From a virus (taxonomy: Duplodnaviria; Heunggongvirae; Uroviricota; Caudoviricetes): 50,042 nt of DNA. The translations under genes were made by a program, and so were the position numbers. Below the pieces are notes generated by a model. That model did no database searches. It was not told where the DNA came from and was given only the letters and a program-made list of their open reading frames with translations. The stretch covers positions 1 to 50,042 of IMG/VR virus record IMGVR_UViG_640753025_000001. The stretch is one strand, 5' to 3'. This document shows positions 3,461-43,064 of this stretch, in pieces. Position 1 is the first letter of the stretch; each line of letters opens with the position of its first letter.

Positions 3461-4102
3461 TCATTCACCATCCTGCTCCGGCGGTTCTGGCAGCGGCATC
3501 CAGTGAGTTACGTCATCCAAGATATTTCCTGATAAATACGTGAAAGCTCTATATTTTTTGTAATCAATTGGATTTACAACCCAGTTCCAATATGCGGCCA
3601 CGATTTCACCTTGACTAAATGCCAGTAACATTTTGGTGTCTTCCGGCATTCGATCACTACAGCTTATCCAACTACCCGGAGTTACCGGAGAGTTGCCGCG
3701 TTCTTTAATGTGCAAGCGAGGCTCACCATCTTTTGGTTCAGGCCACTGGCGTTCCATGTTGATCTTCAATTTATTTTCCATAGCAGCGGTAATTTCAGCA
3801 TCACTGATACCAGCACGGCGCTGTGCATCCCACAACAGAAACTGCATATCAGCCCACTCGCTAAGATCGTCTGGTTCGGCTGCGGCTTCCAGTGCCTCTT
3901 TTGAGAGATGTTTCAGCGGACCAATGGGGCCAACGCAGCCAAATGTGGAGTCAGACCATTTGGCATGCTCGTGGCGAATCTGTTCGCGTTCCAGTGATGC
4001 CAGTGCAATTCGTGCCAGTTCCATTTGTTCGCCACGAGTAAGTCCGTTATCAAGCGGATTTTTAATGAATAATTTGATACGTTCTTTGGTTATAGCGCTC
4101 AT
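3461..4102 (-). CDS. phage protein, DUF551-like C-terminus
   Basis: ORF with AAGGAG RBS before ATG at 4102 (MSAITKE); C-terminal WMPLPEPP motif recalled from DUF551 proteins. Confidence 0.5.
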   Translation of the reverse strand: MSAITKERIKLFIKNPLDNGLTRGEQMELARIALASLEREQIRHEHAKWSDSTFGCVGPIGPLKHLSKEALEAAAEPDDLSEWADMQFLLWDAQRRAGISDAEITAAMENKLKINMERQWPEPKDGEPRLHIKERGNSPVTPGSWISCSDRMPEDTKMLLAFSQGEIVAAYWNWVVNPIDYKKYRAFTYLSGNILDDVTHWMPLPEPPEQDGE

Positions 4103-5923: not shown

Positions 5924-6325
5924 AGGCGATACCGTTATTTGATAAGAAGTGAAGGTTTCCCAACTTTGAGTTGAGCGCCGGGGATATTTATTCCTGCTTT
6001 TAGTTGGTGTTTGATTGCCAGTTTGTCGGCTTTAATTGTTGTTTCAAACTCAACGTATTCTGGAGGAAGGGCGCTTGAGTCGATGATTTCTACAGTTTCT
6101 GACGGTTTGCGGATTGTTACCTGGTGAATACCTGCTCGAATCTTTTTCTTTCCAACCATTTCAAGCGATGACGCTATATACGTCATAATGCTATCAATCT
6201 TATTTTGAATTACTGCTGCTCTTTCATTCAGTGACTTTGCCTCTTCCTTGAGGCGTTCAGCATAACCATGAATCGCCACGGGTTTAACAGACACCTCAGA
6301 GTCATTTAAGATGGCTTAAAGAGAG

Positions 6326-6610
6326 GTGCCCATGAGCGGTAAGCGTTATCCCGAAGAGTTTAAAACTGAAGCAGTCAAACAGGTTGTTGATCGCGGTTAT
6401 TCTGTTGCCAGCGTTGCAACACGTCTCGATATCACCACCCACAGCCTTTATGCCTGGATAAAGAAGTACGGTCCGGATTCTTCCACTAATAAAGAACAGT
6501 CAGATGCTCAGGCCGAGATCCGCCGTCTCCAGAAAGAGCTGAAACGGGTTACCGACGAACGGGACATATTAAAAAAAGCCGCGGCGTACTTCGCAAAGCT
6601 GTCCGACTGA
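6326..6610 (+). CDS. IS3-family transposase OrfA (HTH)
   Basis: 94-aa ORF; A-run (TTAAAAAAAGCC) near 3' end consistent with a -1 frameshift site. Confidence 0.9.
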   Translation: MPMSGKRYPEEFKTEAVKQVVDRGYSVASVATRLDITTHSLYAWIKKYGPDSSTNKEQSDAQAEIRRLQKELKRVTDERDILKKAAAYFAKLSD

Positions 6611-6666
6611 GGTACGCCTTTATCCGTGACAACTCCTGTTGCTGGCCTGTTCGCCTGCTCTGTCGG

Positions 6667-7479
6667 GTGCTGGATGTTCATCCCAGTGGTTTTTACGCCT
6701 GGCTTCAGCAGCCGCATTCACAACGCCATCAGGCAGACCTGAGACTGACAGGACAGATTAAACAGTTCTGGCTGGAATCGGGATGCGTCTATGGTTATCG
6801 CAAAATCCATCTGGATTTGCGTGACAGCGGGCAACAGTGCGGAGTAAACAGAGTCTGGAGACTGATGAAACGTGTCGGAATAAAGGCTCAGGTCGGATAC
6901 CGAAGCCCGCGGGCACGTAAAGGCGAGGCCAGTATCGTGTCACCCAACAGGCTCCAGCGACAGTTCAATCCGGATGCTCCTGATGAGCGTTGGGTAACGG
7001 ACATAACCTACATCAGGACCCACGAAGGCTGGCTGTATCTTGCCGTTGTTGTTGATCTGTTCTCACGCAAAATTATCGGCTGGTCCATGCAATCCCGGAT
7101 GACAAAGGACATTGTCCTGAACGCACTGCTGATGGCTGTATGGCGGCGTAATCCCGAAAAACAGGTGCTGGTTCATTCGGATCAGGGCAGTCAGTACACA
7201 AGCCATGAGTGGCAGTCGTTCCTGAAATCACACGGCCTGGAGGGTAGCATGAGCCGTCGCGGTAACTGCCATGATAATGCGGTTGCAGAAAGTTTTTTCC
7301 AGTTGTTGAAACGTGAACGGATAAAGAAAAAGATCTACGGAACGCGGGAAGAAGCCCGCAGTGATATTTTTGATTACATCGAAATGTTTTATAACAGTAA
7401 GCGTCGGCATGGTTCTAGCGAACAGATGTCACCGACAGAATATGAAAACCAGTATTATCAACGGCTCGGAAGTGTCTAG
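6667..7479 (+). CDS. IS3-family transposase OrfB (DDE catalytic domain)
   Basis: 270-aa ORF from first Met; expected expression as OrfAB fusion by frameshift. Confidence 0.9.
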   Translation: MLDVHPSGFYAWLQQPHSQRHQADLRLTGQIKQFWLESGCVYGYRKIHLDLRDSGQQCGVNRVWRLMKRVGIKAQVGYRSPRARKGEASIVSPNRLQRQFNPDAPDERWVTDITYIRTHEGWLYLAVVVDLFSRKIIGWSMQSRMTKDIVLNALLMAVWRRNPEKQVLVHSDQGSQYTSHEWQSFLKSHGLEGSMSRRGNCHDNAVAESFFQLLKRERIKKKIYGTREEARSDIFDYIEMFYNSKRRHGSSEQMSPTEYENQYYQRLGSV

Positions 7480-7632
7480 ATTATCCGTGGCGATTCACCA
7501 GACTCATTTTTAATAATGGCAAGAAGTTGCTCTATTTTATCGGTAAATTCTCCTTCCATGCCTTCTATTGTGTCAGCAATCATCTCTGGCTCTAAATCTG
7601 AATCCATCAATTTTGCGTATTCATTGGCAATT

Positions 7633-8535
7633 TCATACAGTTTGCTCACTGGCAACCTCCAGTTTCGCTTTGCATTCTGCGTAAATGGCTTGTATGTTCT
7701 GCTGCAATTTCATTCCAGATGTCAGGCGATATGCTTCTGCAAAATATCTCTTCAAATCATCCATGTTTTCAGCCTGAGTCATTTCATCACAAAGAAGTTG
7801 TGCTTTTTCCATTATTTCCTGCTGGCGTTTCCGTTCATCTTCGCGGATATCTTCCTCTGATTTGTGCGGCATAACTGGTTCCTGATGCATACCTTCATCT
7901 TCGTTAAGCAGGTGAATGGCATTATCCAGTCGCTGGGCTTTAGGCCAGTATTTGCTGGCGCGTTTAACTATTGTTTTACGTGCCATCTCTTCCCAGAATG
8001 TTTTCCACGGTCCATTCTTTGCCTTGCTCGTTGCTTCCACAGCTTTAATTTCTGCCAGACTCATTTCTTCAGTCAGGTAGTCACCATCTGCTGTTTTAAC
8101 CGTACAATAACCACCAACAATAGAGCCTCGCTCACCAAATGCGTTGTATTTGTGGGTTGGTGCTGAATCAAGGCCATTTGATTCATAGGTGTCGTTTGAG
8201 TACACCAGTTTGCATTGCCCCCACTTAATTGATCCTGTCGATTGCGCAAGATGAAGTAACCCCATGTAACTGATATCAAGGCAAACCATGCCGTCGCGCG
8301 GAACCAGATAAGCCAGTTTGCTAGCCGGGTTTAAGGTGATACCGATCGCCGCAACATTGATGATGGCGTTCTGTGCGCTGGTTGGATTTGCCAGTGCCGT
8401 TTTAGCCAGGTAATCATTTTTCTGGAAATACTGAATTGCAAACTGGCTTTCCTTAGCCCATGTCACCGTCTGTTCAGTCAATGCTCCGCAGAATAACTGC
8501 TCCTGCTGTTTAACGAATTCAACGATATTGCTCAT
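7633..8535 (-). CDS. recT: recombinase RecT
   Basis: 300-aa ORF recognised as RecT family single-strand annealing protein. Confidence 0.88.
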   Translation of the reverse strand: MSNIVEFVKQQEQLFCGALTEQTVTWAKESQFAIQYFQKNDYLAKTALANPTSAQNAIINVAAIGITLNPASKLAYLVPRDGMVCLDISYMGLLHLAQSTGSIKWGQCKLVYSNDTYESNGLDSAPTHKYNAFGERGSIVGGYCTVKTADGDYLTEEMSLAEIKAVEATSKAKNGPWKTFWEEMARKTIVKRASKYWPKAQRLDNAIHLLNEDEGMHQEPVMPHKSEEDIREDERKRQQEIMEKAQLLCDEMTQAENMDDLKRYFAEAYRLTSGMKLQQNIQAIYAECKAKLEVASEQTV

Positions 8536-9095: not shown

Positions 9096-9170
9096 AGGAT
9101 GCTCCTTCTGTTTGATTGCATAACGAAAACGCCTCGAGTGAAGCGTTATTGGTATGCGGTAAAGCCGCAC

Positions 9171-9539
9171 TCAGGCGGCCTTGATAGTCATATCATCTGA
9201 ATCAAATATTCCTGATGTATCGATATCGGTAATTCTTATTCCTTCACTACCATCCATTGGAGGCCATCCTTCCTGACCATTTCCATCATTCCAGTCGAAC
9301 TCACACACAACACCATATGCATTTAAGTCGCTTGAAATTGCTATAAGCAGAGCATGTTGCGCTAGCATGATTAATACAGCATTTAATACAGAGCCGTGTT
9401 TTTTGAGTCTGTATTCAGAGTCTGACCAGAAATTATTAATCTGGTGAAGTTTTTCCTCTGTCATTACGTCATGGTCGATTTCAATTTCTATTGATGCTTT
9501 CCAGTCGTAATCAATGATGTATTTTTTGATGTTTGACAT
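9171..9539 (-). CDS. hypothetical phage protein
   Basis: 122-aa ORF. Confidence 0.5.
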   Translation of the reverse strand: MSNIKKYIIDYDWKASIEIEIDHDVMTEEKLHQINNFWSDSEYRLKKHGSVLNAVLIMLAQHALLIAISSDLNAYGVVCEFDWNDGNGQEGWPPMDGSEGIRITDIDTSGIFDSDDMTIKAA

Positions 9540-11067: not shown

Positions 11068-11718
11068 TTAAGGAAGGTTTGCTAGCTTGGCATCAACGAC
11101 AACGCCAATGATTTTACAGTTCCCATTGATTTCAATCATTGGGTATTGTGGATTGAGTGGTTTCAGGAATTTTCTACCGGCATCAATAACTAACTTTTTG
11201 AATGTCGCCTCGTTTTCTCCTTCAAGTTTGGCGACTACCAGCTTTCCATTACGTGGTTCGACTTCTGGGTCGACGAGAATAATCATCCCCTCAGGAATAC
11301 TCAGTCCTGCCGGGGCAGTCATTGAATCGCCTTTAACGTCGAGCCAAAAAGAGTCTTCAGAACAATCTACCGTTGTGTCGTACCAGTTATCTATTGCACG
11401 CCTATGATATGGCTCTACAGCTTCCATCCAACATCCTGCGCTTACCCAACTAATTAGAGGATACGAACCTCTTGGATCATGCCTGCTGTGATAGGCAATG
11501 TTTGAAAGACTATCCTCTCCTTTCAACAGGTAATCAGGGGAGCACTGCAAAGCCTTGGCTAAGGCCAATAGGTTTTCGCCATTGGGCTCAGTTTCAGATC
11601 GCTCCCATTGGGAAATAGCAACATTAGACACGCCAACCATCTTGCCAAGGGCAGCCTGCCTAATCTTGAGTTCTTTTCTGCGAGCGCGAATACGCTCACC
11701 CATCAGTTGTGTATTCAT
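11068..11718 (-). CDS. c2: prophage repressor, P22 C2 / lambda CI type (HTH + S24 peptidase)
   Basis: 216-aa ORF; N-terminal HTH, C-terminal S24 domain with intact KGDSM Ser and FKKL Lys; recalled as near-identical to P22 C2. Confidence 0.88.
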   Translation of the reverse strand: MNTQLMGERIRARRKELKIRQAALGKMVGVSNVAISQWERSETEPNGENLLALAKALQCSPDYLLKGEDSLSNIAYHSRHDPRGSYPLISWVSAGCWMEAVEPYHRRAIDNWYDTTVDCSEDSFWLDVKGDSMTAPAGLSIPEGMIILVDPEVEPRNGKLVVAKLEGENEATFKKLVIDAGRKFLKPLNPQYPMIEINGNCKIIGVVVDAKLANLP

Positions 11719-15723: not shown

Positions 15724-16085
15724 CAATGGATTATTCACAGTTAAGTGATTTTGAAATTAACGTGGCGGTATTCGAAGCCATTCATAACGGATCACCGGAT
15801 TACAAAGAAGGTGAGAATGGCGATATGGTGTTTGTCTCATTTGAGGGAGACATTGTAAACGGAGACGCAGTTGAAGTAGAAGTTGAGCGCGGATCCTTTA
15901 ACCCATGCGCAAACCCAGCAGACGCATGGCCGATTATTGAAAAATACAGGATTAGCATTATCAATCTCGATGAAGACGAGTGGGGTGCACGCGGTGTGGC
16001 CTACTGTAAATCTAAGCGAGCTATACATGAAAATCCCCTCCGCTCCGCCATGATTGTCTTTCTCATGATGCAGAGAATCCAATAA
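15720..16085 (+). CDS. hypothetical nin-region protein
   Basis: ATG at 15720 overlapping ninE stop (MTMDYSQ...). Confidence 0.55.
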
Positions 16086-16261
16086 TGATTAGCCCATCCC
16101 AATCCATTCAATACCAGAAAGAAAGCGTCGAGCGGGCTTTAACGTGCGCTAACTGCGGTCAGAAGCTGCATGTGCTTGAAGTTCACGTGTGTGAGCACTG
16201 CTGCGCAGAACTGATGAGCGATCCGAATAGCTCAATGTACGAGGAAGAAGACGATGAGTGA
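16085..16261 (+). CDS. ninF: NinF
   Basis: 58-aa [40 protein letters not shown]...; below ORF-track cutoff. Confidence 0.65.
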   Translation: MISPSQSIQYQKESVERALTCANCGQKLHVLEVHVCEHCCAELMSDPNSSMYEEEDDE

Positions 16262-31856: not shown

Positions 31857-33242
31857 ATGGCTACGTGGCAACAGGGTATTAATTCTGGTGGGTTTCTTGC
31901 TGGCATCGGTGCGCAAAATGAGAATGCGCCAAAGGCAAGCGACATTAACGCAACGCTTGGTCTGATCCGCGAAAACAATGAACTGGCTCGCTCAGGTGCA
32001 AATAACGTTGGTCTGACCGCGTTACGTGGTCTGGCTGGAGTTGCTGATATTTACAAGCAGGAACAGCAACAGAAAGCGATTAATGCGTTCAATAAGGTTC
32101 ATGCTGATGCATGGGCTTCTGGTGATCCATCGGGACTATTTAAGTTTGCCCAGGAAAATCCAGCGTTTGTTGCACAGGCACAACAGGCGTTTTCTGGTCT
32201 TAATGATCAGCAACGCAACGATATGGGCGATTTAGCCATGAGGGCTAACGTCGCTCTTTCTCAGGGACCGGAAGCCTACAGTAAATTCATTACTGACAAC
32301 AAGGACAGGTTAAATCGCGTTGGTGCTAATGCTGACTGGATGATTCAGACAGGTATCCAGAATCCAGAGCAGCTATCACACATGCTGACTACTATGTCTC
32401 TCGGTGCGCTTGGACCAGAAAAGGCGTTTGCTGTTCAGGATAAGATGGCTGGTCGTGAAATTGACCGAGGCAGGCTGGCAGAGACAATCCGCAGCAATCA
32501 GGCTGGCGAGGCACTTCAGGCGAGAGGGCAAAACCTTTCCTATCAGTCAGCAATGACTGGACACGGACTTGCAGCAGAAAGACTGGCACTTGATAAGCAG
32601 AAATTCGGTTTTGAAGTACAACAGGCACAAAAGAAGGCCGATGAACTTATTAATGCTGCGCCAAAACTATCCGTGAACATGGAAAAGGCTATAGAAAAAT
32701 CAGCAGGTGATGCGGCAGCTAGTCGTAATGCTGCCGATTCAATGACAACGCTTGCTGACACGCTTGAGAAGGAGAAGCCAACTCCTGGTTTGTTCGGTAA
32801 CGCTGAAAATATGTTCACTAAGCTTACGGGGCAAGATAACTACCTCCGAGATATGCGGATTAGATTCAACCAACTAGCCAATGCGCAGGCAACCAAGCTT
32901 CTCCCCCCCGGCCCTGCATCAGATAAGGATATTGAGTTTGCAAGGAAAGGCATTCCAAGCGAAACGGATAATCCAATGGTCATGGCTCGATGGTTAAGGG
33001 GTATGGCAAAAATGGAAAGTAATAACGCGAAGTTCAACGAGTTTAGGTCAGAGTGGATGAGTGCAAATGGCAGCCCAGGACAATCTGATCGCAACCGAAA
33101 CATCATGGGGATGGATGTTAAGAAGGGTGAATCATTGAACTCTGCGGCAAAACGTTTTCTTTCCTCAAGTTATGGCGATAGCCAACCTCAACAGCAATTG
33201 TCCGATGACGAATTAATTAGCAAATATCTCGGAGGGCAGTAA
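31857..33242 (+). CDS. ejection protein (P22 gp20-like)
   Basis: 461-aa ORF in gp20 position. Confidence 0.75.
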
Positions 33243-35068
33243 TGGCCTATAGTCGTGAACAGTTGATGACGGCGTTAAGGAATGCTGATGCTGCCGGCGA
33301 TACTGAGGGGGCACGTCGCATTGCTCAGATGCTGTCTTCTGGTGATCAATCCACTCAAAACCAATCGCAGCCAGAAGAACAATCTCTGGTGGGAAAAGCT
33401 ACTGACTGGCTCACTGGTGGTCAAAGTGCAGGGCAAATTGCAGAACAGGCTGGCCGTGGTCTGGTAAACATACCATTTGACGTATTGCAGGGTGGCGCAA
33501 GTCTGATTAATGCAATCAGCCAGGGTCTTGGTGGCCCCAAGGTTTTGGATGATGTTTATCGTCCAGTAGATCGACCAACAGACCCTTATGCGCAAGCTGG
33601 AGAAACAATTGGCGGGTATTTAGTTCCAGGAGTTGGAACGGCAGGAAGCATGGCTATTGGATCACTGGCAGAGGCCGCAAATCAGAAAGGCGATTTCGCA
33701 CAAAATGCAGCCAAAAATGCCGGAGTTAACCTTGCCGCTCAGGGTGTTCTTTCCGCAGCAGCAAAGGGAATAGGGCGTGGAATAACGGCTATAAAAGGTG
33801 ATATTGCGCCAGAAGTGGCGAAGAAAATTGCCACATCAGAATCGATGGGCGTGACACCAATGACATCTGATGTTATCCCGCCGAAAAATGCTTTCACTCG
33901 TGGCCTTACTCAGGATGCCGAGGGGGCTTTGCTCGGGACAGGCTCAAAGAGAGCGGAGCAATATGCAACGCGTAGTAAACTGGTAAGCAATTATTTTGAC
34001 CGTTTTGGTGAGTACAACCCTGATGATGTGGTGAAATCTCTTACCACCACGTTAAGGGGGCGGAAGGATGCCGCTGGCGCTGTTATCAATGACGTCACCA
34101 ATAAAATGGGTAATGCCGCAGTTGATACCACAAATACCATGAATGCTCTGAATACAGCGATCGCAAGACAGGAACGGCTTGGGACGTCTGCCAATCAAAG
34201 CCTGCTTACATCCTTGCGTAACCTACGTGAAGAATTAGCAAACCCTGCAACTGATTTGGATGTTACGTTTGATCTCTTGCGTCAGCACAGAACAGCATTT
34301 AGATCTAATGTTCAGGGAGATGCTATGGTCTTCCCCAACCAGGCAAAAGCAGCTACCAATATGGTAGAGAATGCAATGTCAAAAGACCTTCGTAACGCAG
34401 TTGCTAAAAACCTCGGTGCATCAGACGCAGCAAAATACCTTAAAGCAAATTCCGATTATGCAAACGTTTATAATAAGGTGCTTAATAAAAACATTGCCAA
34501 CAAGCTCAACAAGGCAAGCAGTGAAGCCAGTCCTGAACTTATAAATACCGTTGTATTAAGCAGAAAACCATCTGACGTGAAACGAATCTGGAGCGCACTG
34601 GATGATAAAGGGAAAGATGCTATGCGTGCAGCTTACGTCAGCAAAATAGCGGAAAAGGCCGGCGACTCTCCAGCCAAGTTCATCACTGAAGTTAATAAGC
34701 TGAAATCTCAGTCAGGAGGTGAAATTTACAACACTATTTTTTCTGGAAAGCACATGAAAGAACTTGATGCTCTTAATGAAGTTCTACAGCAAACAGCAAG
34801 GTCAGACACCGCAAATGTAGTAACTCAGACGGGGCAATCGCAAGCCAACAGGATAAGGACGATTGGCGCAACTGCGACTCTTGGCGTATCAATGGGGCTT
34901 GAGGCTGGTTTCGGTGCAATGATGCGCTTGTATGAGTCCAAAGCAGCAAGGAATGCGCTCTTACGTCTGGCAAACACTAAAGCTGGAACGCCAGCCTATG
35001 AAAGAGCGCTGAATAACGCCGCAAATGCCATCAGACCAATACTTGCCAATGATGCAACTGATCGCTAA
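33242..35068 (+). CDS. ejection protein (P22 gp16-like)
   Basis: 608-aa ORF in gp16 position. Confidence 0.8.
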
Positions 35069-35089: not shown

Positions 35090-35728
35090 TTAATTGCGAA
35101 TGGAATCGCGGAACTCTTTGCTTGATAGAAAAGGATCTGTTCTCCTTAACTCATCATAGTTTTTATTAAACTTTCTTGCTTCACCTGGGTATCTGTTGAA
35201 CAAAACATTGCAGAAAAAAGAGAGCAATAACTCACATATGAATGCTAATACCCTGAAAAATAAAGGTATAAAAAGAAGGGAAGGTTCATTGAAGTCTCTA
35301 TTCCAAACAAAATAGACAATCATCCCGACATACCAAATTGATATCCCTATACTGATGATTGTTCCAACAGAGGTAACTACGATCCCGATTAAGTCGGACA
35401 GTCTGTTTGCCAGTAACTCATTTGAGTATCTTGCAATCATATACCGCCAACATTTTGCAATATCATCCTGATCTGTAGAGTCTTCTGGAATAGCTAGGCT
35501 TCTACATATTGAAGTAGCTCTTTTTTTCTCAACTCTTTTTGAGATCCATCCATTAAAGAGATACATCAACACCTGCGTTGCTATTCCTGCACCAAGTGAT
35601 ATCAAAGACATCCCCAAAAATCTCCATCCTGGAGATAGTGACTGGTACTGCCAAACAAAAAAAATTAAAAAACCCAATGAGCCTATGACATAGGCTGATG
35701 TATCGCTATATATATCTATTTTTTTCAT
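35090..35728 (-). CDS. membrane protein in sieA position (putative superinfection exclusion)
   Basis: ATG at 35728 (MKKIDIYSD) after AAGGAG; about four hydrophobic segments; AT-rich gene between gp16 and the immI-like region. Confidence 0.55.
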   Translation of the reverse strand: MKKIDIYSDTSAYVIGSLGFLIFFVWQYQSLSPGWRFLGMSLISLGAGIATQVLMYLFNGWISKRVEKKRATSICRSLAIPEDSTDQDDIAKCWRYMIARYSNELLANRLSDLIGIVVTSVGTIISIGISIWYVGMIVYFVWNRDFNEPSLLFIPLFFRVLAFICELLLSFFCNVLFNRYPGEARKFNKNYDELRRTDPFLSSKEFRDSIRN

Positions 35729-35792
35729 TGAGTAGCCACTCCTTAGTTTTGAGCAGAACACCGGATGATAATGTGTCGCTTCCTAAAGGATA

Positions 35793-36434
35793 TCAAAGCA
35801 ACGGGATTTCAAGGTAAACTGCGGTTGCCAAAATACTAACATCTTCATTTCTAACAAGAATATTAGGATACATTGGGTTTAGGGATACTAAGTTTGTCTC
35901 TATTTCACCAATGTAAACCTGCTTGAAGCTCAATATTTGCTCTTTATCCAATGATGCTATTACATAATCTTTGCTTTTAGCTTTTACTAGAGGGCTGAAC
36001 GTGACAACTGATCCTCTGGGAAAGCTAATACCTGAACTTGTAGTCATAGCTTCACCTTCAATAGTCAATGCAAATGCAGAGTCACCAACATTGTATATTG
36101 CCGGATGAAATCTAGACGATGAATGTTCACCTGTGTTTAGGTAATGCATAACTTCATCTAGTTTGAGGATTGGTATTTGCTTTACCAGAACGTCAGGCAT
36201 GACGTTTTTTGTTCCAGGCCCCTGACCTTCACCCAGAGCTAACCACTCAGCCGTAGTGCCTAATGCGTTGGCTAATGCCTGCAATACACGAAGCCGTGGT
36301 TTAGCCTCACCACCCTCGTATGCAGCTATTTGACGTTGAACAACACCAGCTAATTTTGACAACTGCGCCTGCGTCATACCCCTGGACTGTCTTGCCAGAG
36401 ATACTCTTGATGGGAATTGATCGTCAAAATTCAT
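35793..36434 (-). CDS. second CI-like repressor (HTH + S24-like domain, Ser to Ala at nucleophile)
   Basis: 213 aa; HTH GMTQAQLSKLAGV; C-terminal domain aligns to CI/C2 but has GEAM (Ala129, codon 36048..36050) where CI/C2 have GNSM/GDSM. Confidence 0.8.
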   Translation of the reverse strand: MNFDDQFPSRVSLARQSRGMTQAQLSKLAGVVQRQIAAYEGGEAKPRLRVLQALANALGTTAEWLALGEGQGPGTKNVMPDVLVKQIPILKLDEVMHYLNTGEHSSSRFHPAIYNVGDSAFALTIEGEAMTTSSGISFPRGSVVTFSPLVKAKSKDYVIASLDKEQILSFKQVYIGEIETNLVSLNPMYPNILVRNEDVSILATAVYLEIPLL

Positions 36435-36455
36435 TAGTTCACCATAAAAAATTCA

Positions 36456-36484
36456 TTGACTCATACTGAGTGTGAGTGAATAAT
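36456..36484 (+). promoter_or_regulatory. Pant-like promoter for arc-ant operon
   Basis: TTGACT - 17 bp - AATAAT; spacer holds tandem TGAGTGTGAGTG. Confidence 0.5.
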
Positions 36485-36532
36485 CAAACTACAAAAAGTG
36501 AGATTATGAGTTTTTCAAAAACAGGAGTGCAT

Positions 36533-36706
36533 AATGACTGAAAAGATATCTTCCATCAAGCCGCGTCAGGTTCGTTTTACAGAAAAGGTTGATTCACATA
36601 TCCGCGAATCAGCAAAAAGATGCCATAGGTCAATTCAGGCAGAGATAGCTTATCGAATGGAGTTATTGATGAAACTTGAGGCAAAGGGCGATGTTGTCAT
36701 CCAATA
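36533..36706 (+). CDS. arc: Arc-like ribbon-helix-helix repressor
   Basis: 57 aa; RQVRFTEKVDSHIRESAKRCHRSIQAEIAYRM fits Arc/Mnt pattern; below ORF-track cutoff. Confidence 0.65.
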
Positions 36707-36780
36707 AAAATAGTGAAGCCCGGCAGTGCGCGAACACAAACCGGGCCTCTATGTCAGTAACCGTATGCAAGGAAACTAAC

Positions 36781-37407
36781 ATGAATATTGTAGCAAAATC
36801 AGATTACAACTTCCACGGAGTTGAGTTGGTGCCCACCCGTGATATGCATGGTGTTTGGTTTACATCATCTAATATTGCATCTGCACTTAAATATGCAAAT
36901 AGCCGTGCAGTAACAATGATTTATAACAAGTATAGCGATGAGTTTAGCGCCGGAATGACTCAGGTACTCGAAGTGAGTACCTCAGGAAATTATCGCAAAA
37001 AAGTGCGAGTTTTCTCACTACGCGGTGCCCACCTAATCGCGATGTTTGCTCGCACTCCGGTAGCCAAAGAGTTCCGCCGCTGGGTGCTGGATATTTTGGA
37101 TCGGCAGGCAGAATGCTCACCGATTGCAAAACAGTTTACTGACGAAGAACTGGTTAATCTCTGCTACTTACAATTGTGGATGGAGAAGAGTCAACAAATG
37201 TGCAAACACATCTACCCAGGAATGAAGCAAATTGGTTCTGAGCTTTCAGGAAGAATTTACGATATTGCATATGAGACTCGCTATATGTCAGAAGAAACCA
37301 AGAAATCACTTCTTCGTGAAATGAAGAATCTTGATACCAACAATTTTGTCGTAAAGAACGCTCAGCCAATGCTGACAAAACTGCGCGGCGAGGAATGGAT
37401 TCATTGA
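36781..37407 (+). CDS. ant: antirepressor (Bro-N domain)
   Basis: ATG at 36781 after AAGGAA; N-terminal domain (HGVELVPTRDMHGVWFTS...) resembles phage antirepressor N-domain. Confidence 0.7.
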   Translation: MNIVAKSDYNFHGVELVPTRDMHGVWFTSSNIASALKYANSRAVTMIYNKYSDEFSAGMTQVLEVSTSGNYRKKVRVFSLRGAHLIAMFARTPVAKEFRRWVLDILDRQAECSPIAKQFTDEELVNLCYLQLWMEKSQQMCKHIYPGMKQIGSELSGRIYDIAYETRYMSEETKKSLLREMKNLDTNNFVVKNAQPMLTKLRGEEWIH

Positions 37408-38143
37408 TTGGTGCGCCGGACGGCGCAAAAAGAAAACCGCCAGTGTGCTGCTGGCGGCCTATGTCACACCCTTACTACCACATAAGGAATGCCTAATGAC
37501 TTTGAAGAATGTAGCAAACATCGGATCCGTTGTCACGGATAAAACCATTGACAGCCAAAGTCTTCTGATGATGGTTAATGAAGCTCGCAAGTTATGTGGA
37601 GAGCCATCAGTACGTAACAACAAATTCATCGAGAAAATTGAGGATGAATTGGAGGGCGAGACCTACACAAAAAGTGTAGGTCGGAAAAACGGGGCTGACA
37701 TTGATGTTATCTCCATGACTATCAAGCAGGCGCTTCGTGTTGCTGCTCGCGAATCTAAAGCAGTTCGCCGAACACTTGTAGACAAACTTGAAAGTATGCA
37801 AGAAGCGCACATTAAAAGCGGTAAATCGTCGAGTGGACTTGTTGAGTATCGCCAGGCTCGAACATTGAAAATGACGGTTGAAGCTGTTACCAATCTGTTA
37901 GATTTGATGCCAAATCTTGCGCCGGAAGCAAAGCAGACTGCGGCAGCAAGCATAATCAACCCGATAGTTGGTTTTAATGCAATACCTCTTCCAGCAATAG
38001 AAGAGCATTACTACTCAGCAGGGGAGGTTGCAGAGCAGCTTGGAGTAACGGCAAACAAGATTGGTCGCATTGCTAACGCAAACAACTGAATCGCCACGGG
38101 TTTAACAGACACCTCAGAGTCATTTAAGATGGCTTAAAGAGAG

Positions 38144-38428
38144 GTGCCCATGAGCGGTAAGCGTTATCCCGAAGAGTTTAAAACTGAAGCAGTCAAACAG
38201 GTTGTTGATCGCGGTTATTCTGTTGCCAGCGTTGCAACACGTCTCGATATCACCACCCACAGCCTTTATGCCTGGATAAAGAAGTACGGTCCGGATTCTT
38301 CCACTAATAAAGAACAGTCAGATGCTCAGGCCGAGATCCGCCGTCTCCAGAAAGAGCTGAAACGGGTTACCGACGAACGGGACATATTAAAAAAAGCCGC
38401 GGCGTACTTCGCAAAGCTGTCCGACTGA
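38144..38428 (+). CDS. IS3-family transposase OrfA
   Basis: Identical protein to 6326..6610. Confidence 0.9.
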   Translation: MPMSGKRYPEEFKTEAVKQVVDRGYSVASVATRLDITTHSLYAWIKKYGPDSSTNKEQSDAQAEIRRLQKELKRVTDERDILKKAAAYFAKLSD

Positions 38429-38484
38429 GGTACGCCTTTATCCGTGACAACTCCTGTTGCTGGCCTGTTCGCCTGCTCTGTCGG

Positions 38485-39297
38485 GTGCTGGATGTTCATC
38501 CCAGTGGTTTTTACGCCTGGCTTCAGCAGCCGCATTCACAACGCCATCAGGCAGACCTGAGACTGACAGGACAGATTAAACAGTTCTGGCTGGAATCGGG
38601 ATGCGTCTATGGTTATCGCAAAATCCATCTGGATTTGCGTGACAGCGGGCAACAGTGCGGAGTAAACAGAGTCTGGAGACTGATGAAACGTGTCGGAATA
38701 AAGGCTCAGGTCGGATACCGAAGCCCGCGGGCACGTAAAGGCGAGGCCAGTATCGTGTCACCCAACAGGCTCCAGCGACAGTTCAATCCGGATGCTCCTG
38801 ATGAGCGTTGGGTAACGGACATAACCTACATCAGGACCCACGAAGGCTGGCTGTATCTTGCCGTTGTTGTTGATCTGTTCTCACGCAAAATTATCGGCTG
38901 GTCCATGCAATCCCGGATGACAAAGGACATTGTCCTGAACGCACTGCTGATGGCTGTATGGCGGCGTAATCCCGAAAAACAGGTGCTGGTTCATTCGGAT
39001 CAGGGCAGTCAGTACACAAGCCATGAGTGGCAGTCGTTCCTGAAATCACACGGCCTGGAGGGTAGCATGAGCCGTCGCGGTAACTGCCATGATAATGCGG
39101 TTGCAGAAAGTTTTTTCCAGTTGTTGAAACGTGAACGGATAAAGAAAAAGATCTACGGAACGCGGGAAGAAGCCCGCAGTGATATTTTTGATTACATCGA
39201 AATGTTTTATAACAGTAAGCGTCGGCATGGTTCTAGCGAACAGATGTCACCGACAGAATATGAAAACCAGTATTATCAACGGCTCGGAAGTGTCTAG
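38485..39297 (+). CDS. IS3-family transposase OrfB
   Basis: Identical protein to 6667..7479. Confidence 0.9.
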   Translation: MLDVHPSGFYAWLQQPHSQRHQADLRLTGQIKQFWLESGCVYGYRKIHLDLRDSGQQCGVNRVWRLMKRVGIKAQVGYRSPRARKGEASIVSPNRLQRQFNPDAPDERWVTDITYIRTHEGWLYLAVVVDLFSRKIIGWSMQSRMTKDIVLNALLMAVWRRNPEKQVLVHSDQGSQYTSHEWQSFLKSHGLEGSMSRRGNCHDNAVAESFFQLLKRERIKKKIYGTREEARSDIFDYIEMFYNSKRRHGSSEQMSPTEYENQYYQRLGSV

Positions 39298-39471
39298 ATT
39301 ATCCGTGGCGATTCAAACCTCAAAACTGAGCAGTACGGGAAGTTCTTCCTGGATAAATCGGCGCATTCCAGCAAACAGGTAGAGGCGTTCCGTTACAATT
39401 CTGAAGGCGTTAAAGCACTACAACACCTGCTACATGGCTCAAATGTGGCGTAACATTTTATAATGAAAACT

Positions 39472-39497
39472 AAACCCGCTTAATCGCGGGTTTTTTC
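39472..39497 (+). terminator. rho-independent terminator ending the arc-ant operon
   Basis: Hairpin AAACCCGC-TTAATC-GCGGGTTT followed by TTTTC. Confidence 0.65.
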
Positions 39498-39767
39498 TTT
39501 CCTTAGAATTTCAGCCGCAACTTCTTTTACTCGTTCCGAGATTAATGAGGCCAGCCTCTCTTCTTCATCACGATACCCGCTTACAGGTGATGGTTTGGAG
39601 AGTGATTCTTCCATCGTAGCCACAATTTCAGAATTGATAGACCTGTTATTCATTTTTGCACGCTGCTTAATCTTAGCGTGCAACTCGTGTGTAAGCCTCA
39701 AGTGGAACTGCGCCTCATCGTATTTGCTGTACATCATCAATGCCTCACCAAATGGGTGGAATGGCAT
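39480..39767 (-). CDS. mnt: Mnt-like ribbon-helix-helix repressor
   Basis: 95-aa ORF; LRLTHELHAKIKQRAKMNNRSINSEIVATMEESLSKPSPVSGYRDEEERLA matches the P22 Mnt pattern as recalled; true start may be an internal Met. Confidence 0.65.
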   Translation of the reverse strand: MPFHPFGEALMMYSKYDEAQFHLRLTHELHAKIKQRAKMNNRSINSEIVATMEESLSKPSPVSGYRDEEERLASLISERVKEVAAEILRKEKTRD

Positions 39768-39867
39768 CGTAACCTACTGGATAAATCAACAATCGTACCA
39801 TTTCGGTATGTAACTATAGCTTACCGCAGCTCTGCTGTGGGGACTAATTGCGCCAGGAGCACATCAA

Positions 39868-41778
39868 ATGACTGACACCAATTACCTGATCTCTATGCCG
39901 TCTACACCTTTTTCGGCGCCACGAGCATTTAAATCAGTGGCGAACGGGAAAATCTATATCGGAAACCCTGACACTGACCCGGTAAATCCTGCTAACCAAA
40001 TTCCGGTATATGCCGTTAATGAGAATGGATCCGAGGTTCAGGTTTCTCAGCCAATCATCATTAACGCTGGAGGCTTCCCTGTTTATAACGGGCAGATTAT
40101 GAAGTTCATCACCAAACAGAACTTCAGCATGGCGGTGTATGATGCATATGGGGCGCAGCAGTTTTACTGGATTAATGTTGCAAATATGGACCCAAACTCT
40201 GCGTATCTGGAAGCGGTTAATGATGTTCTTGCAATGCTGGGCTCAAGCGATGGCGCAAAACTGATAGGTGGAATGAGCTTTCTTACAGCGGAAATGTACT
40301 CTCATCTTGTTGAAGGGATGGACTGGAGGAAAGCAATTCAAGCTGCTATAGACCAAGCTCACCAGAACTATTTAGCCGGAAGCGGCCCAACCAATATTCT
40401 CATTGGAGGTGAATTCTCCGTTACTCTCAATCCTAATTCAACTTTGATACCTGGTGAGGTTGCTGCGGGTCGAGGTGCGCTGTGTATGCGTAGTGGTGTA
40501 ACACTGATGGGCGGCGGAGCAATCACGCTTGATGGCAATTTTACTGGCTCAGCCAGCGGCGCAATCATTACAAACTGGGAAGGCGCCGCCGATAACTGCA
40601 AGATTCAGGGGATCACGCTTAACGGCAGCCGTGGCACCGCTGCCGGAACGGGGATTACCTGCATTAATATCTTGGACTCGGATAATGTCACTATTGATAA
40701 CGTTAAGGCGATAGATAGCACTTCTGGAGGGATTTATTTACGCCGAGCTAACAATACGGTTTATGGCTGTTCTAACTCAAGAATTATGAACTGCTACGTT
40801 CACAACGTTGAATATATTGGCATTCAGTGTGAACGCCCCAACGGGATGACCATTACGGGATGTGCCGTAGCCTCCTGCGGTGATAATGGCATTGATATCT
40901 TTGGTAACGTAACTGACGAATCTGGACAGGGAGTTGCGGAGGATGTTGTTGTTAGTAATAACACTATCCGTGATGTAAGCGTAGGAGTGTTCATCGAATC
41001 ATGCGGAAACGTGGCAATATCTTCGTGCCGTATTTCAGGATTTAGTAACTCTGGTGTTTTCTTTAACCGGATAAATACAGCTGCGTATAATTGTTCTGTA
41101 ATTGGATGCACGATAACAGGGGCGGATATTACCTCCAGCCAGGGCATCCGCTGGAAGAATGCAGTTGGTTACACTCGCGTTTATAACAACACACTAAAAA
41201 ACTGTATTGACTCCTTTGTGACAACTGGAGGGATGATTTACGTTGATATTGGGGTGAATAACCATGAAAGCATTGGCAGGTGTTTTCTTTACGTTCCCAA
41301 AAAATCTAACGGATGTGTCTATACAAGAATGGTTCAGCAGGTCTACAACGGAGTTCAGACAGATGGCATACCGTACAACACGACACCTCGTGGTTGGCCA
41401 TCCGCAAACAACACTAGGTACTATCGCTGTTCATTCACCGCGCCGTACATGATGTATTCCGCTACGACTGGGGAAGATAACCTCATTCGGGCTACAGGCA
41501 ATTTGCCATTCAACAGTGGCTGGGGGCCTGCTTACTCGCTATACAATACGATTGTTTCTGGAGAAACAGTAATAGCCATGGGGAGCTCGCTACTGTCTGC
41601 CGGTGAATACATGCTAATAAACGGTTATTATTATTTAGTTTATAGCGTCACATCATCCTATGCTGTAGTAAGGAAATGGGATGTATCCAGTCAGGACTAT
41701 ATTGCCGGAGACTACACATCTTATTTAAATAGCGCATACGCATATTCCATCTTCAGAGCTGCTTGGGGAACACTATGA
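39868..41778 (+). CDS. tailspike protein (P22-type head-binding domain + divergent receptor-binding domain)
   Basis: 636 aa; N-terminal ~110 aa (FKSVANGKIYIGNPDTDPVNPANQIPVY) collinear with P22 gp9; remainder Gly/Asn/Ser/Thr-rich with repeated short strands. Confidence 0.88.
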   Translation: MTDTNYLISMPSTPFSAPRAFKSVANGKIYIGNPDTDPVNPANQIPVYAVNENGSEVQVSQPIIINAGGFPVYNGQIMKFITKQNFSMAVYDAYGAQQFYWINVANMDPNSAYLEAVNDVLAMLGSSDGAKLIGGMSFLTAEMYSHLVEGMDWRKAIQAAIDQAHQNYLAGSGPTNILIGGEFSVTLNPNSTLIPGEVAAGRGALCMRSGVTLMGGGAITLDGNFTGSASGAIITNWEGAADNCKIQGITLNGSRGTAAGTGITCINILDSDNVTIDNVKAIDSTSGGIYLRRANNTVYGCSNSRIMNCYVHNVEYIGIQCERPNGMTITGCAVASCGDNGIDIFGNVTDESGQGVAEDVVVSNNTIRDVSVGVFIESCGNVAISSCRISGFSNSGVFFNRINTAAYNCSVIGCTITGADITSSQGIRWKNAVGYTRVYNNTLKNCIDSFVTTGGMIYVDIGVNNHESIGRCFLYVPKKSNGCVYTRMVQQVYNGVQTDGIPYNTTPRGWPSANNTRYYRCSFTAPYMMYSATTGEDNLIRATGNLPFNSGWGPAYSLYNTIVSGETVIAMGSSLLSAGEYMLINGYYYLVYSVTSSYAVVRKWDVSSQDYIAGDYTSYLNSAYAYSIFRAAWGTL

Positions 41779-42833: not shown

Positions 42834-43064
42834 TTACTGTGTCTTTTCGTCCAGCCAGTCCGCCCACCACTGCATCATTTCTCTGCGTTTATCGAGATAC
42901 TGAGCATGGTTGTATATTCCACGCACAGATCCGCCGTTGGCATGAGCGAGTTGCACTTCGATAGTTTCGTGATGCACCAAGTGATCAAAGTAATGAAATT
43001 TAACATCCAAGCCTCCATCGATCGATACTTGCGGTAGTTGATAAGGAAAAACTATGGTACACAA
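42834..43064 (-). pseudogene. C-terminal fragment of a P4-type tyrosine integrase
   Basis: EVQLAHANGGSVRGIYNHAQYLDKRREMMQWWADWLD aligns with the C-terminus of the intact integrase at 43465..44673; no N-terminal/catalytic part. Confidence 0.6.

What the first reader, a model, noticed from the sequence alone, without database searches (positions are those of the whole stretch)
36435..39767. Unusual immI-like architecture: CI-like repressor, arc, split antirepressor, and an Mnt-like gene convergent on the operon
The order is CI-like repressor (minus), Pant-like promoter, arc, a Bro-N antirepressor, a second gene with ANT/KilA-C-like C-terminus (IS-disrupted), a strong terminator, then an Mnt-like RHH repressor on the opposite strand directly upstream of the tailspike gene. 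In P22 as I recall it, mnt is divergent from arc-ant. Here the Mnt-like gene has moved to the tailspike side and a different repressor occupies its place.
Basis: partly seen in the sequence, partly recalled or inferred. Interest (0 to 1): 0.45.

Follow-up and report, generated by a model that had tools for sequence, protein, structure and literature searches.

The report
Two-module antirepressor region in P22-like prophage
The region between the DNA-injection gene and the tailspike gene of the P22-like prophage of E. coli HS joins a self-contained antirepressor operon, which has its own CI-type repressor, to a separate and widespread "orphan" Mnt repressor unit; this layout was already mapped in 2008 and recurs in other phages, so it is a real but only modestly new variant of P22's second immunity region.

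Summary
The window is E. coli HS, and the region is the "ant moron" of prophage HS-1, already drawn with its IS3 insertion by Villafane et al. 2008 (PMC2629481).

Two points need correcting. The antirepressor is not split: Ant1 (Bro-N + P22_AR_C) is complete, and Ant2 is a separate 241-aa gene cut by a 1229-bp IS. The Mnt-like gene has not "moved". Mnt-like, its operator and the tailspike gene form a unit found in about 6% of complete E. coli genomes, mostly without any ant gene (Sf101, ST64T/L, B7A). Its operator is absent from the ant promoter.

The ant operon forms its own cassette: a CI-type repressor (catalytic Ser replaced by Ala, no Ala-Gly site) divergent from a 57-aa Arc-sized ribbon-helix-helix (RHH) protein, then a sar-like antisense RNA, Ant1, a second antisense unit, and Ant2. 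This cassette recurs in other phage types and genera. The full order occurs in phage JEP4, in at least 25 complete E. coli genomes and in a distant Leclercia-type prophage.

Verdict: new variant of a known kind, moderate interest.

The parts
33242..35068 (+). gp16-like DNA-transfer (ejection) protein; left border of the 'ant moron'
   Evidence: phrog_770 4e-263; annotated as DNA transfer protein
35090..35761 (-). SieA-like superinfection-exclusion gene, same strand as and downstream of the CI-like gene (PGAP start at 35728)
   Evidence: phrog_7745 SieA-like 7.5e-21; same position as sieA in P22
35793..36434 (-). CI/LexA-type repressor (213 aa) with an HTH domain and an S24-fold C-terminal domain. 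The catalytic Ser is replaced by Ala (IEGEAMT), the Lys is kept, and there is no Ala-Gly cleavage site. Inferred maintenance repressor of the ant operon and functional substitute for Mnt.
   Evidence: Pfam HTH_3 and Peptidase_S24; alignment to lambda CI structures and to the prophage's own immC repressor; family alignment; always divergent from antirepressor genes in five other contexts
36435..36533 (.). Divergent control region. Pant-like promoter: -35 at 36456-36461, -10 at 36479-36484. 19-bp near-palindrome ACTCATACTGAGTGTGAGT at 36459-36477, in the promoter spacer. Conserved downstream element GTGAGATTATGAGT at about 36497-36512. These are candidate operators for the CI-like and RHH proteins; which protein binds which is unresolved.
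   Evidence: alignment of diverged cassettes
36534..36707 (+). 57-aa Arc-sized probable ribbon-helix-helix (RHH) protein, first gene of the ant operon (Arc analogue)
   Evidence: phrog_10182; Pfam ParD_like 8e-4, below cut-off; AmrZ E 0.8; hhalign against an Arc/Mnt profile, probability 48%, E 1.8e-4, in register; replaced as a unit by a 57-aa annotated Arc-family gene in variant B; 81-93% conserved across Enterobacterales
36704..36781 (-). sar-like antisense RNA 1. It is complementary to the Ant1 ribosome-binding site, has a 3' GC hairpin and U-run, and has an extended -10 TGCTACAAT at 36787-36795 (-).
   Evidence: two-hairpin fold, z = -6.6, like P22 sar; a covariance model built from P22, eps34 and SPN3UB sar hits here at 22.5 bits, E about 0.005, the best hit in the window, and hits antisense-upstream of ant in 7 other loci; the stem covaries. 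The Rfam sar model does not hit.
36781..37407 (+). Ant1: complete antirepressor (Bro-N + P22_AR_C), 208 aa
   Evidence: Pfam; phrog_245 anti-repressor Ant 4e-54
37426..37536 (-). Candidate antisense unit 2. Promoter GTGACA-17-TACATT with TG (37536-37508) lies inside the first codons of Ant2. Terminator hairpin and U-run at 37460-37434. The transcript would cover the Ant2 ribosome-binding site and start codon.
   Evidence: fold; the same antisense terminator lies 3' of Ant1 in L021, L017 and SPN3UB although the downstream gene differs; TGCTAYAWT occurs only twice in the window, both at ant starts
37496..38086 (+). Ant2, 5' part (197 codons): antirepressor-family gene interrupted by the IS
   Evidence: phrog_1726 anti-repressor 4e-75; removing the IS restores 241 aa, matching JEP4_17; 1541 homologs; fold matches to viral antirepressor/KilAC proteins
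38087..39315 (+). IS3-family insertion sequence (1229 bp; orfA/orfB with frameshift; inverted repeats TGAATCGCCACGG; target duplication AAC at 38084-38086 and 39316-39318)
   Evidence: Pfam HTH_Tnp_1 and rve; boundaries from the JEP4 comparison; identical copy at 6269-7497
39316..39453 (+). Ant2, 3' part (44 codons plus stop). The 73-aa ORF that follows Ant2 in JEP4 and EC17CM7 is absent here.
39472..39493 (.). Bidirectional intrinsic terminator shared by the ant operon (+) and the Mnt-like gene (-)
39480..39737 (-). Mnt homolog (85 aa from MMYSKY; the ORF is open up to 39767), under strong purifying selection
   Evidence: Pfam Arc 5e-15; 45% identical to P22 Mnt over the RHH and C-terminal regions; dN/dS 0.03-0.05; start inferred from the SD sequence GGTGAGG, the JEP4 annotation and P22 geometry
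39738..39815 (.). Conserved Mnt-like control region with the candidate operator GTACCATTTCGGTAT (39795-39809). Candidate leftward promoters: TTGTTG/TACGAT, or the extended -10 TGGTACGAT. No convincing rightward promoter.
   Evidence: alignment of 9 loci; same position as the ST64T palindrome AGACCACCGTGGTCT and P22 Omnt; unique in the window; promoter scan
39824..39840 (+). Conserved 7-bp hairpin in the tailspike leader ('boundary sequence' region)
   Evidence: present twice in P22
39868..41778 (+). Tailspike gene (P22-type head-binding domain plus beta-helix); right border
   Evidence: Pfam Head_binding 1e-44

Best explanation
The region is a mosaic of two self-contained regulatory modules that lie side by side in the 'ant moron' of a P22-like prophage.

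Module A (35793-39453) is an immI-type antirepressor cassette.
- A strong Pant-like promoter drives four elements in order: a 57-aa Arc-like RHH protein, Ant1, Ant2 and, in relatives, a 73-aa ORF.
- In the lysogen this promoter is held off by the divergently transcribed CI-type repressor. That protein cannot self-cleave (Ser replaced by Ala, no Ala-Gly site). It therefore plays the SOS-insensitive 'maintenance' role that Mnt plays in P22.
- After infection the operon fires briefly. It is then shut down by the RHH protein, as Arc does in P22.
- Translation of each antirepressor is damped by its own sar-type antisense RNA, started from an extended -10 promoter embedded in the first codons of the gene.
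- In E. coli HS, Ant2 is inactivated by an IS.

Module B (39480-39867) is an orphan Mnt homolog with its own operator, placed between its gene and the tailspike gene. It regulates its own promoter region, and possibly transcription entering the tailspike gene. It does not regulate module A.

Shown here: the gene identities, the loss of the catalytic Ser and of the cleavage site, cassette-wise exchange, linkage of the CI-like gene with ant genes, sar homology, independence and conservation of module B, and absence of its operator at the ant promoter.

Inferred: who binds where, the repression logic, the actual transcripts, and the targets of Ant1 and Ant2.
For: Gene content and order.

P22 reference map.

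Loss of the catalytic Ser and of the cleavage site. The prophage's primary immC repressor at 11068-11718 keeps a full S24 domain.

Cassette behaviour:
- In variant B the left repressor, promoter and small RHH gene are replaced as a block, and identity resumes exactly at the RHH stop codon.
- The trio CI-like / 57-aa RHH / antirepressor recurs in a Leclercia-type P22-like prophage with the same overall order at 45% identity, in siphovirus tail regions and at prophage ends.
- The two proteins share contigs.

sar:
- Fold, z = -6.6.
- An independent covariance model hits at E about 0.005 in the right place and on the right strand, and likewise in 7 other loci.
- Compensatory pairs in the stem.

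Second antisense unit.

Module B independence:
- 327 of 5426 genomes have the Mnt-like gene, against 25 with the whole architecture.
- Ant-less contexts.
- Operator at a position homologous to the ST64T and P22 operators.
- Operator unique in the window.
- 119 of 119 viral contigs have the tailspike to the right of the operator.
- dN/dS 0.03-0.05.
Against: - No binding or expression data exist for any component.
- The RHH assignment of the 57-aa protein is weak. It is below the Pfam cut-off, hhalign gives 48%, and the AlphaFold monomer model was an uninformative single helix.
- The Rfam sar model does not recognise the antisense element.
- Operators at the ant promoter are only candidates, and the spacer palindrome is not conserved in diverged cassettes.
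- No sigma-70 match of 9/12 or better exists in either direction in the Mnt-like/tailspike intergenic region, so what Mnt-like controls is unknown.
- A diverged or half-site Mnt-like operator in module A cannot be excluded by a search allowing at most 3 mismatches.
- Most members of the CI-like family keep the Ser-Lys dyad, so 'non-cleavable' applies only to the HS subclade.
Confidence: 0.65

Rival explanations
1. One reading: a single rearranged immI circuit. The Mnt-like gene was relocated to the tailspike side but still co-regulates the arc-ant operon in trans, together with the CI-like repressor.
For: Mnt-like is a true Mnt homolog. It is convergent on the operon and shares its terminator. 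The combination is kept in JEP4, in at least 25 E. coli genomes and in a distant Leclercia-type prophage.
Against: Its conserved operator is unique in the window and absent from the ant promoter. The same Mnt-like/operator/tailspike unit mostly occurs without ant. In variant B the operator-like palindrome at the ant promoter is a different sequence.
Confidence: 0.08
2. SOS-coupled antirepressor switch: the CI-like protein is a LexA-like, RecA-cleavable repressor, so DNA damage releases Ant1 and Ant2 to induce the prophage. This would resemble LexA-controlled antirepressors of Gifsy phages or Tum of phage 186 (recalled from memory, not checked here).
For: HTH plus S24 architecture. Most family members keep the GDSM Ser and the Lys. 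Some are annotated 'LexA family'.
Against: In HS and its closest relatives the nucleophile Ser is Ala, and the position that aligns with the Ala-Gly site of the immC repressor reads Val-Met. The prophage's primary repressor already has a complete S24 domain, so no extra SOS input is needed.
Confidence: 0.05
3. Decaying remnant: the region is non-functional debris in a defective prophage, and the gene order has no regulatory meaning.
For: Ant2 is IS-disrupted. A second IS copy interrupts an early gene. The 73-aa ORF is missing. A partial integrase lies downstream.
Against: All other ORFs are intact and are identical or near-identical to those in other genomes and in the viable phage JEP4. Mnt-like is under strong purifying selection. 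The architecture is conserved at 45% protein identity in another genus.
Confidence: 0.1
4. Module B is the functionally important part. The orphan Mnt either gates transcription into the tailspike gene (a relic Pant or a roadblock), or it acts as a stand-alone immunity factor that silences ant operons of superinfecting relatives.
For: The operator is always immediately upstream of the tailspike. Its geometry matches P22 mnt-Omnt. There is purifying selection in ant-less prophages. The phage L paper leaves the role of orphan mnt open. Villafane et al. note that P22 Mnt and Arc may modulate tailspike levels.
Against: No conserved rightward promoter was found. None of the 119 operator-bearing contigs places the operator in front of arc or ant, which argues against the anti-Ant immunity idea for this specificity.
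Confidence: 0.3

Closest known systems
Phage P22 immI region (mnt, arc, sar, ant)
   Same: Same location, between gene 16/sieA and gene 9. A strong promoter drives a small RHH gene and then an antirepressor. A divergent maintenance repressor uses overlapping face-to-face promoters. A sar-type antisense RNA lies across the ant ribosome-binding site. A terminator precedes the tailspike.
   Different: The divergent repressor is a CI/S24-fold protein, not Mnt. There are two antirepressor-type genes, each with an antisense unit. The small RHH protein is only distantly Arc-like. The Mnt homolog lies on the far side of the operon with an operator of its own.
'Mnt-only' ant morons of ST64T, ST104, phage L, Sf101, IME10 and the E. 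coli B7A prophage
   Same: An Mnt homolog transcribed away from, and immediately upstream of, the tailspike, with a palindromic operator at the same position and the same downstream boundary sequence.
   Different: Those phages have no antirepressor. HS-1 has a complete ant cassette inserted to the left of the Mnt gene.
HS-1 'ant moron' in Villafane et al. 2008 (BMC Microbiol 8:227, Fig. 3)
   Same: It is this very locus, drawn with the IS3 insertion. The authors noted putative antirepressor genes and concluded that control must differ from P22.
   Different: They reported an apparent lack of arc. They did not describe the CI-type repressor's dead active site, the sar-like RNAs or the independence of the Mnt unit.
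Mnt-Arc-Ant cassettes of lambdoid siphoviruses (e.g. Salmonella phage SPN3UB gp19-gp22)
   Same: Same Ant1 (94% DNA identity), the same antisense terminator 3' of Ant1, a sar homolog, and a second regulatory-type gene downstream.
   Different: Classical Mnt-like and Arc-like regulators; the second gene is an ORF6N protein; the location is different.
LexA-controlled antirepressors (Gifsy-1/3, phage 186 Tum); recalled from memory, not tested here
   Same: An antirepressor gene under a LexA/CI-fold repressor.
   Different: Here the repressor is phage-encoded, divergent from the operon and, in the HS subclade, lacks the nucleophile. SOS coupling is therefore unlikely.

Membership tests
P22-type immI region | Antirepressor gene located between gene 16 and the tailspike gene | tested here: met
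   Ant1 has Bro-N + P22_AR_C and matches phrog_245; flanked by gp16-like and Head_binding tailspike genes
P22-type immI region | Arc (RHH) as first gene of the ant operon | tested here: inconclusive
   A 57-aa ORF sits in the right place. Support is weak: ParD_like 8e-4 (below cut-off), hhalign 48% / E 1.8e-4, AlphaFold monomer uninformative. It is swapped for an annotated Arc-family gene in variant B.
P22-type immI region | Mnt repressor divergent from arc-ant, with its operator overlapping Pant | tested here: not met
   The divergent gene is CI-like. The Mnt-like operator GTACCATTTCGGTAT is found only at 39795-39809.
P22-type immI region | sar antisense RNA across the ant translation start | tested here: inconclusive
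   Rfam RF00262 gives no hit at E<=10, although it hits P22 at 97.8 bits. A model built here from P22, eps34 and SPN3UB hits 36704-36781(-) at 22.5 bits, E about 0.005. Fold z = -6.6.
LexA/CI self-cleaving (S24) repressors | N-terminal HTH plus C-terminal S24-fold domain | tested here: met
   HTH_3 9e-13; Peptidase_S24 1e-12, covering profile positions 23-116
LexA/CI self-cleaving (S24) repressors | Ser-Lys catalytic dyad | tested here: not met
   The Ser position is Ala (IEGEAMT against lambda VEGNSMT); the Lys is kept
LexA/CI self-cleaving (S24) repressors | Ala-Gly (or Cys-Gly) scissile bond in the linker | tested here: not met
   The position that aligns with the immC repressor's S-A-G reads E-V-M
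Mnt repressor family | N-terminal Arc-type RHH domain plus a C-terminal oligomerisation segment homologous to P22 Mnt | tested here: met
   Pfam Arc 4.8e-15; 45% identity to P22 Mnt over residues 17-89, including SKPSPV.GYR
Mnt repressor family | Binds a palindromic operator and represses Pant | not testable with these tools
   A candidate operator lies at a homologous position, but there is no Pant or ant next to it
IS3 family insertion sequence | orfA (HTH) and orfB (DDE rve) with a frameshift, terminal inverted repeats, 3-bp target duplication | tested here: met
   Pfam HTH_Tnp_1 and rve; PGAP annotates a programmed frameshift; inverted repeats TGAATCGCCACGG and target duplication AAC
ANT/KilAC antirepressor C-terminal domain (for Ant2) | Match to Pfam ANT (PF03374) or an equivalent model | tested here: not met
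   No Pfam or NCBIfam hit. Fold-level matches to viral proteins named antirepressor or KilAC at E 3e-8 to 1e-5, with low TM-scores. The C-terminal ~70 aa resemble MerR/Xis-type winged helix domains.

The most novel reading that the evidence does not exclude
Three linked ideas remain open.

1. A family of CI/S24-fold repressors, in one subclade with a dead active site, has taken over Mnt's job as the SOS-blind guardian of antirepressor operons. It travels with a conserved 57-aa RHH partner as a mobile 'immunity-I' cassette among unrelated phage types.

2. Every antirepressor-type gene in such cassettes (P22_AR_N, Bro-N, phrog_1726, Rha and ORF6N proteins) carries an antisense extended -10 promoter (TGCTAYAWT) within its first codons. 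If so, sar-type antisense control is a general, gene-by-gene feature rather than a P22 peculiarity.

3. The widespread orphan Mnt next to the tailspike is a selected regulator of transcription at or into the tailspike gene, not a decaying remnant. This would answer a question left open for phages L and ST64T.
Probability: 0.3. Interest if true: 0.55.

Novelty: new variant of a known kind. Interest (0 to 1): 0.35.

Why it matters
P22 immI is a textbook regulatory circuit (Mnt, Arc, sar, Ant). This locus shows that the same logic is built from interchangeable parts. A CI-fold repressor can replace Mnt, antirepressor genes can be stacked with one antisense RNA each, and the Mnt/operator unit persists on its own beside the tailspike in about 6% of E. 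coli genomes. If confirmed, this would explain how antirepressor cassettes move between phage types with their regulators. It would also give a testable role to the 'orphan mnt' genes whose function the literature leaves open. Antirepressors can cross-induce resident prophages, so knowing what keeps them silent bears on prophage stability in commensal and pathogenic E. coli. The practical importance is modest, and the map itself was already published.

Tried and rejected
- Rfam scans of the region gave only sub-threshold RyhB and SymR matches and no sar hit.
- The AlphaFold monomer model of the 57-aa protein was a single long helix (pLDDT 84). It is useless for deciding on an RHH fold, so I ran no fold search on it.
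- My first hhalign comparison was circular, because the query was in the target alignment. I repeated it without the query.
- Searching the window for a second Mnt-like operator with up to 3 mismatches gave only chance-level hits at 3625, 13791 and 27147.
- I tested the idea that the orphan Mnt guards against ant operons carrying the same operator. In 119 IMG/VR contigs with the exact 16-mer, none has arc or ant to the right.
- I looked for a rightward, tailspike-directed sigma-70 promoter across 10 homologous intergenic regions. None is conserved.
- VSe13's small 'antirepressor' next to its Mnt-like gene is unrelated to Ant1 and Ant2.
- The second gene of SPN3UB (ORF6N) is unrelated to Ant2.
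- Sequence searches of Ant2 against Pfam and NCBIfam found nothing, and a Foldseek search of its AlphaFold model against PDB structures gave no significant full-length match.
- Casjens & Grose 2016 and Casjens & Thuman-Commike 2011 are not in the held library.

Full report
**What the window is**

The 5-kb stretch around the finding is 100% identical to the E. coli HS chromosome. It lies inside a P22-like (Lederbergvirus-type) prophage. A gp16-like ejection protein gene lies to the left and a tailspike with a P22-type head-binding domain lies to the right.

This interval is what Villafane et al. 2008 called the "ant moron". Their Figure 3 already draws the E. coli HS prophage ("HS-1", CP000802) with an IS3 insertion. 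It also draws the B7A prophage. Their text says HS-1 has putative antirepressor genes but apparently no arc, so control "differs from P22" (PMC2629481).

**Checking the observation**

- CI-like repressor, 35793-36434 (-): HTH_3 and Peptidase_S24.
- The best sigma-70 match of the region, TTGACT-17-AATAAT, 36456-36484.
- A 57-aa ORF, 36534-36707.
- Ant1, 36781-37407: Bro-N + P22_AR_C, phrog_245.
- A second gene from 37496, matching phrog_1726 "anti-repressor".
- An IS3-family element.
- A bidirectional terminator, 39472-39493.
- An Mnt homolog, 39480-39767 (-): Pfam Arc 5e-15, 45% identical to P22 Mnt.
- The tailspike, 39868-41778.

Comparison with phage JEP4 fixes the IS at 38087-39315. It is 1229 bp long, with inverted repeats TGAATCGCCACGG and a target duplication AAC. 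Removing it restores a 241-aa protein collinear with JEP4_17.

Two details need correction. First, the antirepressor is not "split": Ant1 is a complete two-domain protein and Ant2 is a separate gene. Second, Ant2's "ANT/KilA-C-like" C-terminus has no Pfam or NCBIfam support. An AlphaFold model of an intact homolog (pLDDT 71) does match viral proteins named antirepressor or KilAC at E 3e-8 to 1e-5. Its last ~70 residues resemble MerR/Xis-type winged helices.

**How common the order is**

P22, epsilon34 and CUS-3 have the classical order, with mnt divergent from (arc-)ant, followed by gene 9. Sf6 has nothing between gene 16 and the tailspike.

The HS order without the IS is found in:
- the isolated phage JEP4;
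- E. coli EC17CM7;
- 25 of 5426 complete E. coli genomes at 80% or more coverage;
- a Leclercia-type P22-like prophage, where the CI-like protein is only 45% identical and the second gene is a Rha protein.

The order is therefore a minority arrangement, but it is recurrent and evolutionarily stable.

**The Mnt-like gene has not moved**

The Mnt-like gene and the first ~50 bp upstream of it occur in 327 of 5426 E. coli genomes. In B7A, 2015C-4944, P15-25 and phage Sf101 the gene sits between gene 16 and the tailspike with no antirepressor at all. ST64T (and phage L) likewise have mnt immediately upstream of, and divergent from, gene 9.

An alignment of nine loci shows a block that is invariant across nearly all of its length, from the Mnt-like start to 39815. 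It contains GTACCATTTCGGTAT at 39795-39809. In ST64T the perfect palindrome AGACCACCGTGGTCT lies at the same position. In P22, Omnt lies 63 bp from the mnt ATG. Here the distance is 65 bp if the start is 39737. This geometry, an SD sequence GGTGAGG and the JEP4 annotation all argue that the protein is 85 aa.

The operator occurs nowhere else in the window at up to 3 mismatches above chance. In 119 IMG/VR contigs carrying the exact 16-mer, the tailspike N-terminus is always to the right. About 80% of them lack Ant1 and Ant2.

The protein is under strong purifying selection, with dN/dS 0.03-0.05, including against ant-less prophages.

Mnt-like, its operator and the tailspike are therefore an autonomous unit. 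HS-1 carries an ant cassette inserted to its left.

I could not find a conserved rightward promoter. What the unit controls beyond its own gene remains open.

**The ant cassette and its regulators**

The CI-like protein aligns with lambda CI and with the prophage's own immC repressor (11068-11718, full S24 domain). It has Ala where the nucleophilic Ser should be (IEGEAMT against VEGNSMT). It keeps the Lys. It reads Val-Met where the immC repressor has its Ala-Gly site.

In a family alignment of 19 homologs, most keep GDSM. The HS subclade (71-99% identity, three different sequence contexts) and one distant member have Ala. The change therefore looks retained rather than accidental. A repressor that cannot self-cleave is what P22's Mnt is functionally: an SOS-blind maintenance repressor.

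Variant B (pB1.H1.18.c6) shows that the left repressor, the promoter and the small RHH gene are exchanged as one block. Identity resumes exactly at the stop codon of the small gene.

The trio of CI-like, 57-aa protein and antirepressor recurs in several settings. It is found in a siphovirus tail region (L020), next to a different tailspike (L021), at a prophage end (L022) and next to an integrase (L018). This ties the pair functionally to ant genes.

The 57-aa protein is 81-93% conserved across Enterobacterales. Its RHH assignment is only probable.

Candidate operators are:
- a 19-bp near-palindrome in the promoter spacer;
- a conserved TGAG-N4-5-TG(A/C)G element downstream of the -10.

I cannot say which protein binds which.

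**Antisense RNAs**

The minus strand of the RHH-Ant1 spacer folds into the same two-hairpin shape as P22 sar, with z = -6.6 against -5.0 for P22.

Rfam's sar model hits P22 at 98 bits but not this window. A covariance model built only from P22, epsilon34 and SPN3UB sar gives its best window hit at 36704-36781 (-): full length, 22.5 bits, E about 0.005. It also hits antisense-upstream of ant in CUS-3, L017, L021, L022, variant B, JEP4 and L018. The terminator stem shows compensatory changes.

A second unit flanks the Ant2 start. Its promoter is GTGACA-17-TACATT preceded by TG, and its antisense terminator is at 37460-37434. The same terminator follows Ant1 in L021, L017 and SPN3UB, even though the next gene differs in each.

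The 9-mer TGCTAYAWT occurs only twice in the 50-kb window. Both copies are antisense and lie within the first codons of Ant1 and Ant2. The same holds for SPN3UB and L017. P22's Psar -10 has the same form.

These transcripts are predicted, not observed.

**Most likely mechanism**

Module A works like P22 immI with one part swapped.
- The CI-fold repressor keeps the Pant-like promoter off in the lysogen.
- On infection, the RHH protein, Ant1 and Ant2 are made briefly.
- The RHH protein and the two antisense RNAs then limit them.

Module B is an autoregulated orphan Mnt. Its possible effect on transcription into the tailspike gene is untested. I give this two-module reading 0.65.

The rivals are less likely for the reasons given in their entries:
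- Mnt-like still controls the operon;
- the CI-like protein is SOS-cleavable;
- the region is debris.

**Novelty**

The map is published, and the individual protein families are known. The additions here are interpretive:
- an Arc-like candidate where the 2008 paper saw none;
- a catalytically dead CI-fold repressor in Mnt's place, travelling as a cassette;
- a diverged sar plus a second antisense unit;
- evidence that the orphan Mnt unit is conserved and selected, which the phage L paper left open.

I rate this a new variant of a known kind, of moderate interest.

Noticed in passing
window 6269-7497 (+): A second, 100% identical copy of the 1229-bp IS3-family element, with its own target duplication (CCA). 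It interrupts a minus-strand early-region ORF. The two direct copies lie 31.8 kb apart inside the prophage and could mediate a large deletion.
   Followed up: partly
L002 (P22 NC_002371) 8044-8175, i.e. record 16043-16174: P22 carries an 18-codon relic of an Ant2-like gene (RLGNELEGETYKKIVGRK against Ant2 residues 47-64, tblastn E 0.002) between the ant terminator and gene 9. It is flanked by a direct repeat AAAATTCACCGTAGCCAYGCT. This suggests that P22's immI once had a second antirepressor-type gene.
   Followed up: partly
window 39824-39840 (+): A conserved 7-bp hairpin in the tailspike leader, within the 'boundary sequence' shared by P22, ST64T, JEP4 and L017. The wobble changes and one compensatory change fit a plus-strand RNA. 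It has no U-run, so it is not a terminator. Function unknown.
   Followed up: partly
L005 (NZ_CP146561.1, pB1.H1.18.c6) 3885-4031: A 39.9-kb circular record deposited as a plasmid is a complete P22-like phage genome. Its left mnt gene is a truncated pseudogene. It may be a derepressed or replicating phage rather than a plasmid.
   Followed up: no
window 39429-39467, compared with L001 8470-8717: The 73-aa ORF that follows Ant2 in JEP4, EC17CM7 and variant B is absent from HS. It is replaced by about 39 bp of unrelated sequence.
   Followed up: no
window 39792-39800 and homologs: The left half of the Mnt-like operator overlaps a leftward extended -10 (TGGTACGAT in HS; TGGTACTAT in Sf101, B7A and L017). 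This extended -10 is lost in JEP4-type sequences. Those have instead a 2-bp insertion that gives the alternative TTGTTG/TACGAT promoter a 17-bp spacer. The two sequence types may use different Mnt promoters.
   Followed up: partly
window about 42834-42968 (-): RefSeq annotates a partial integrase pseudogene just beyond the genes downstream of the tailspike. A full-length candidate integrase ORF lies at the other prophage end (1459-2619, -).
   Followed up: no
L001 (JEP4) 9121-9311: In JEP4 the conserved tailspike start (ATGACAGAT...) is followed by about 190 bp of AT-rich sequence, and the annotated tailspike starts only at 9311. The head-binding start therefore seems to have been replaced or displaced.
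   Followed up: no
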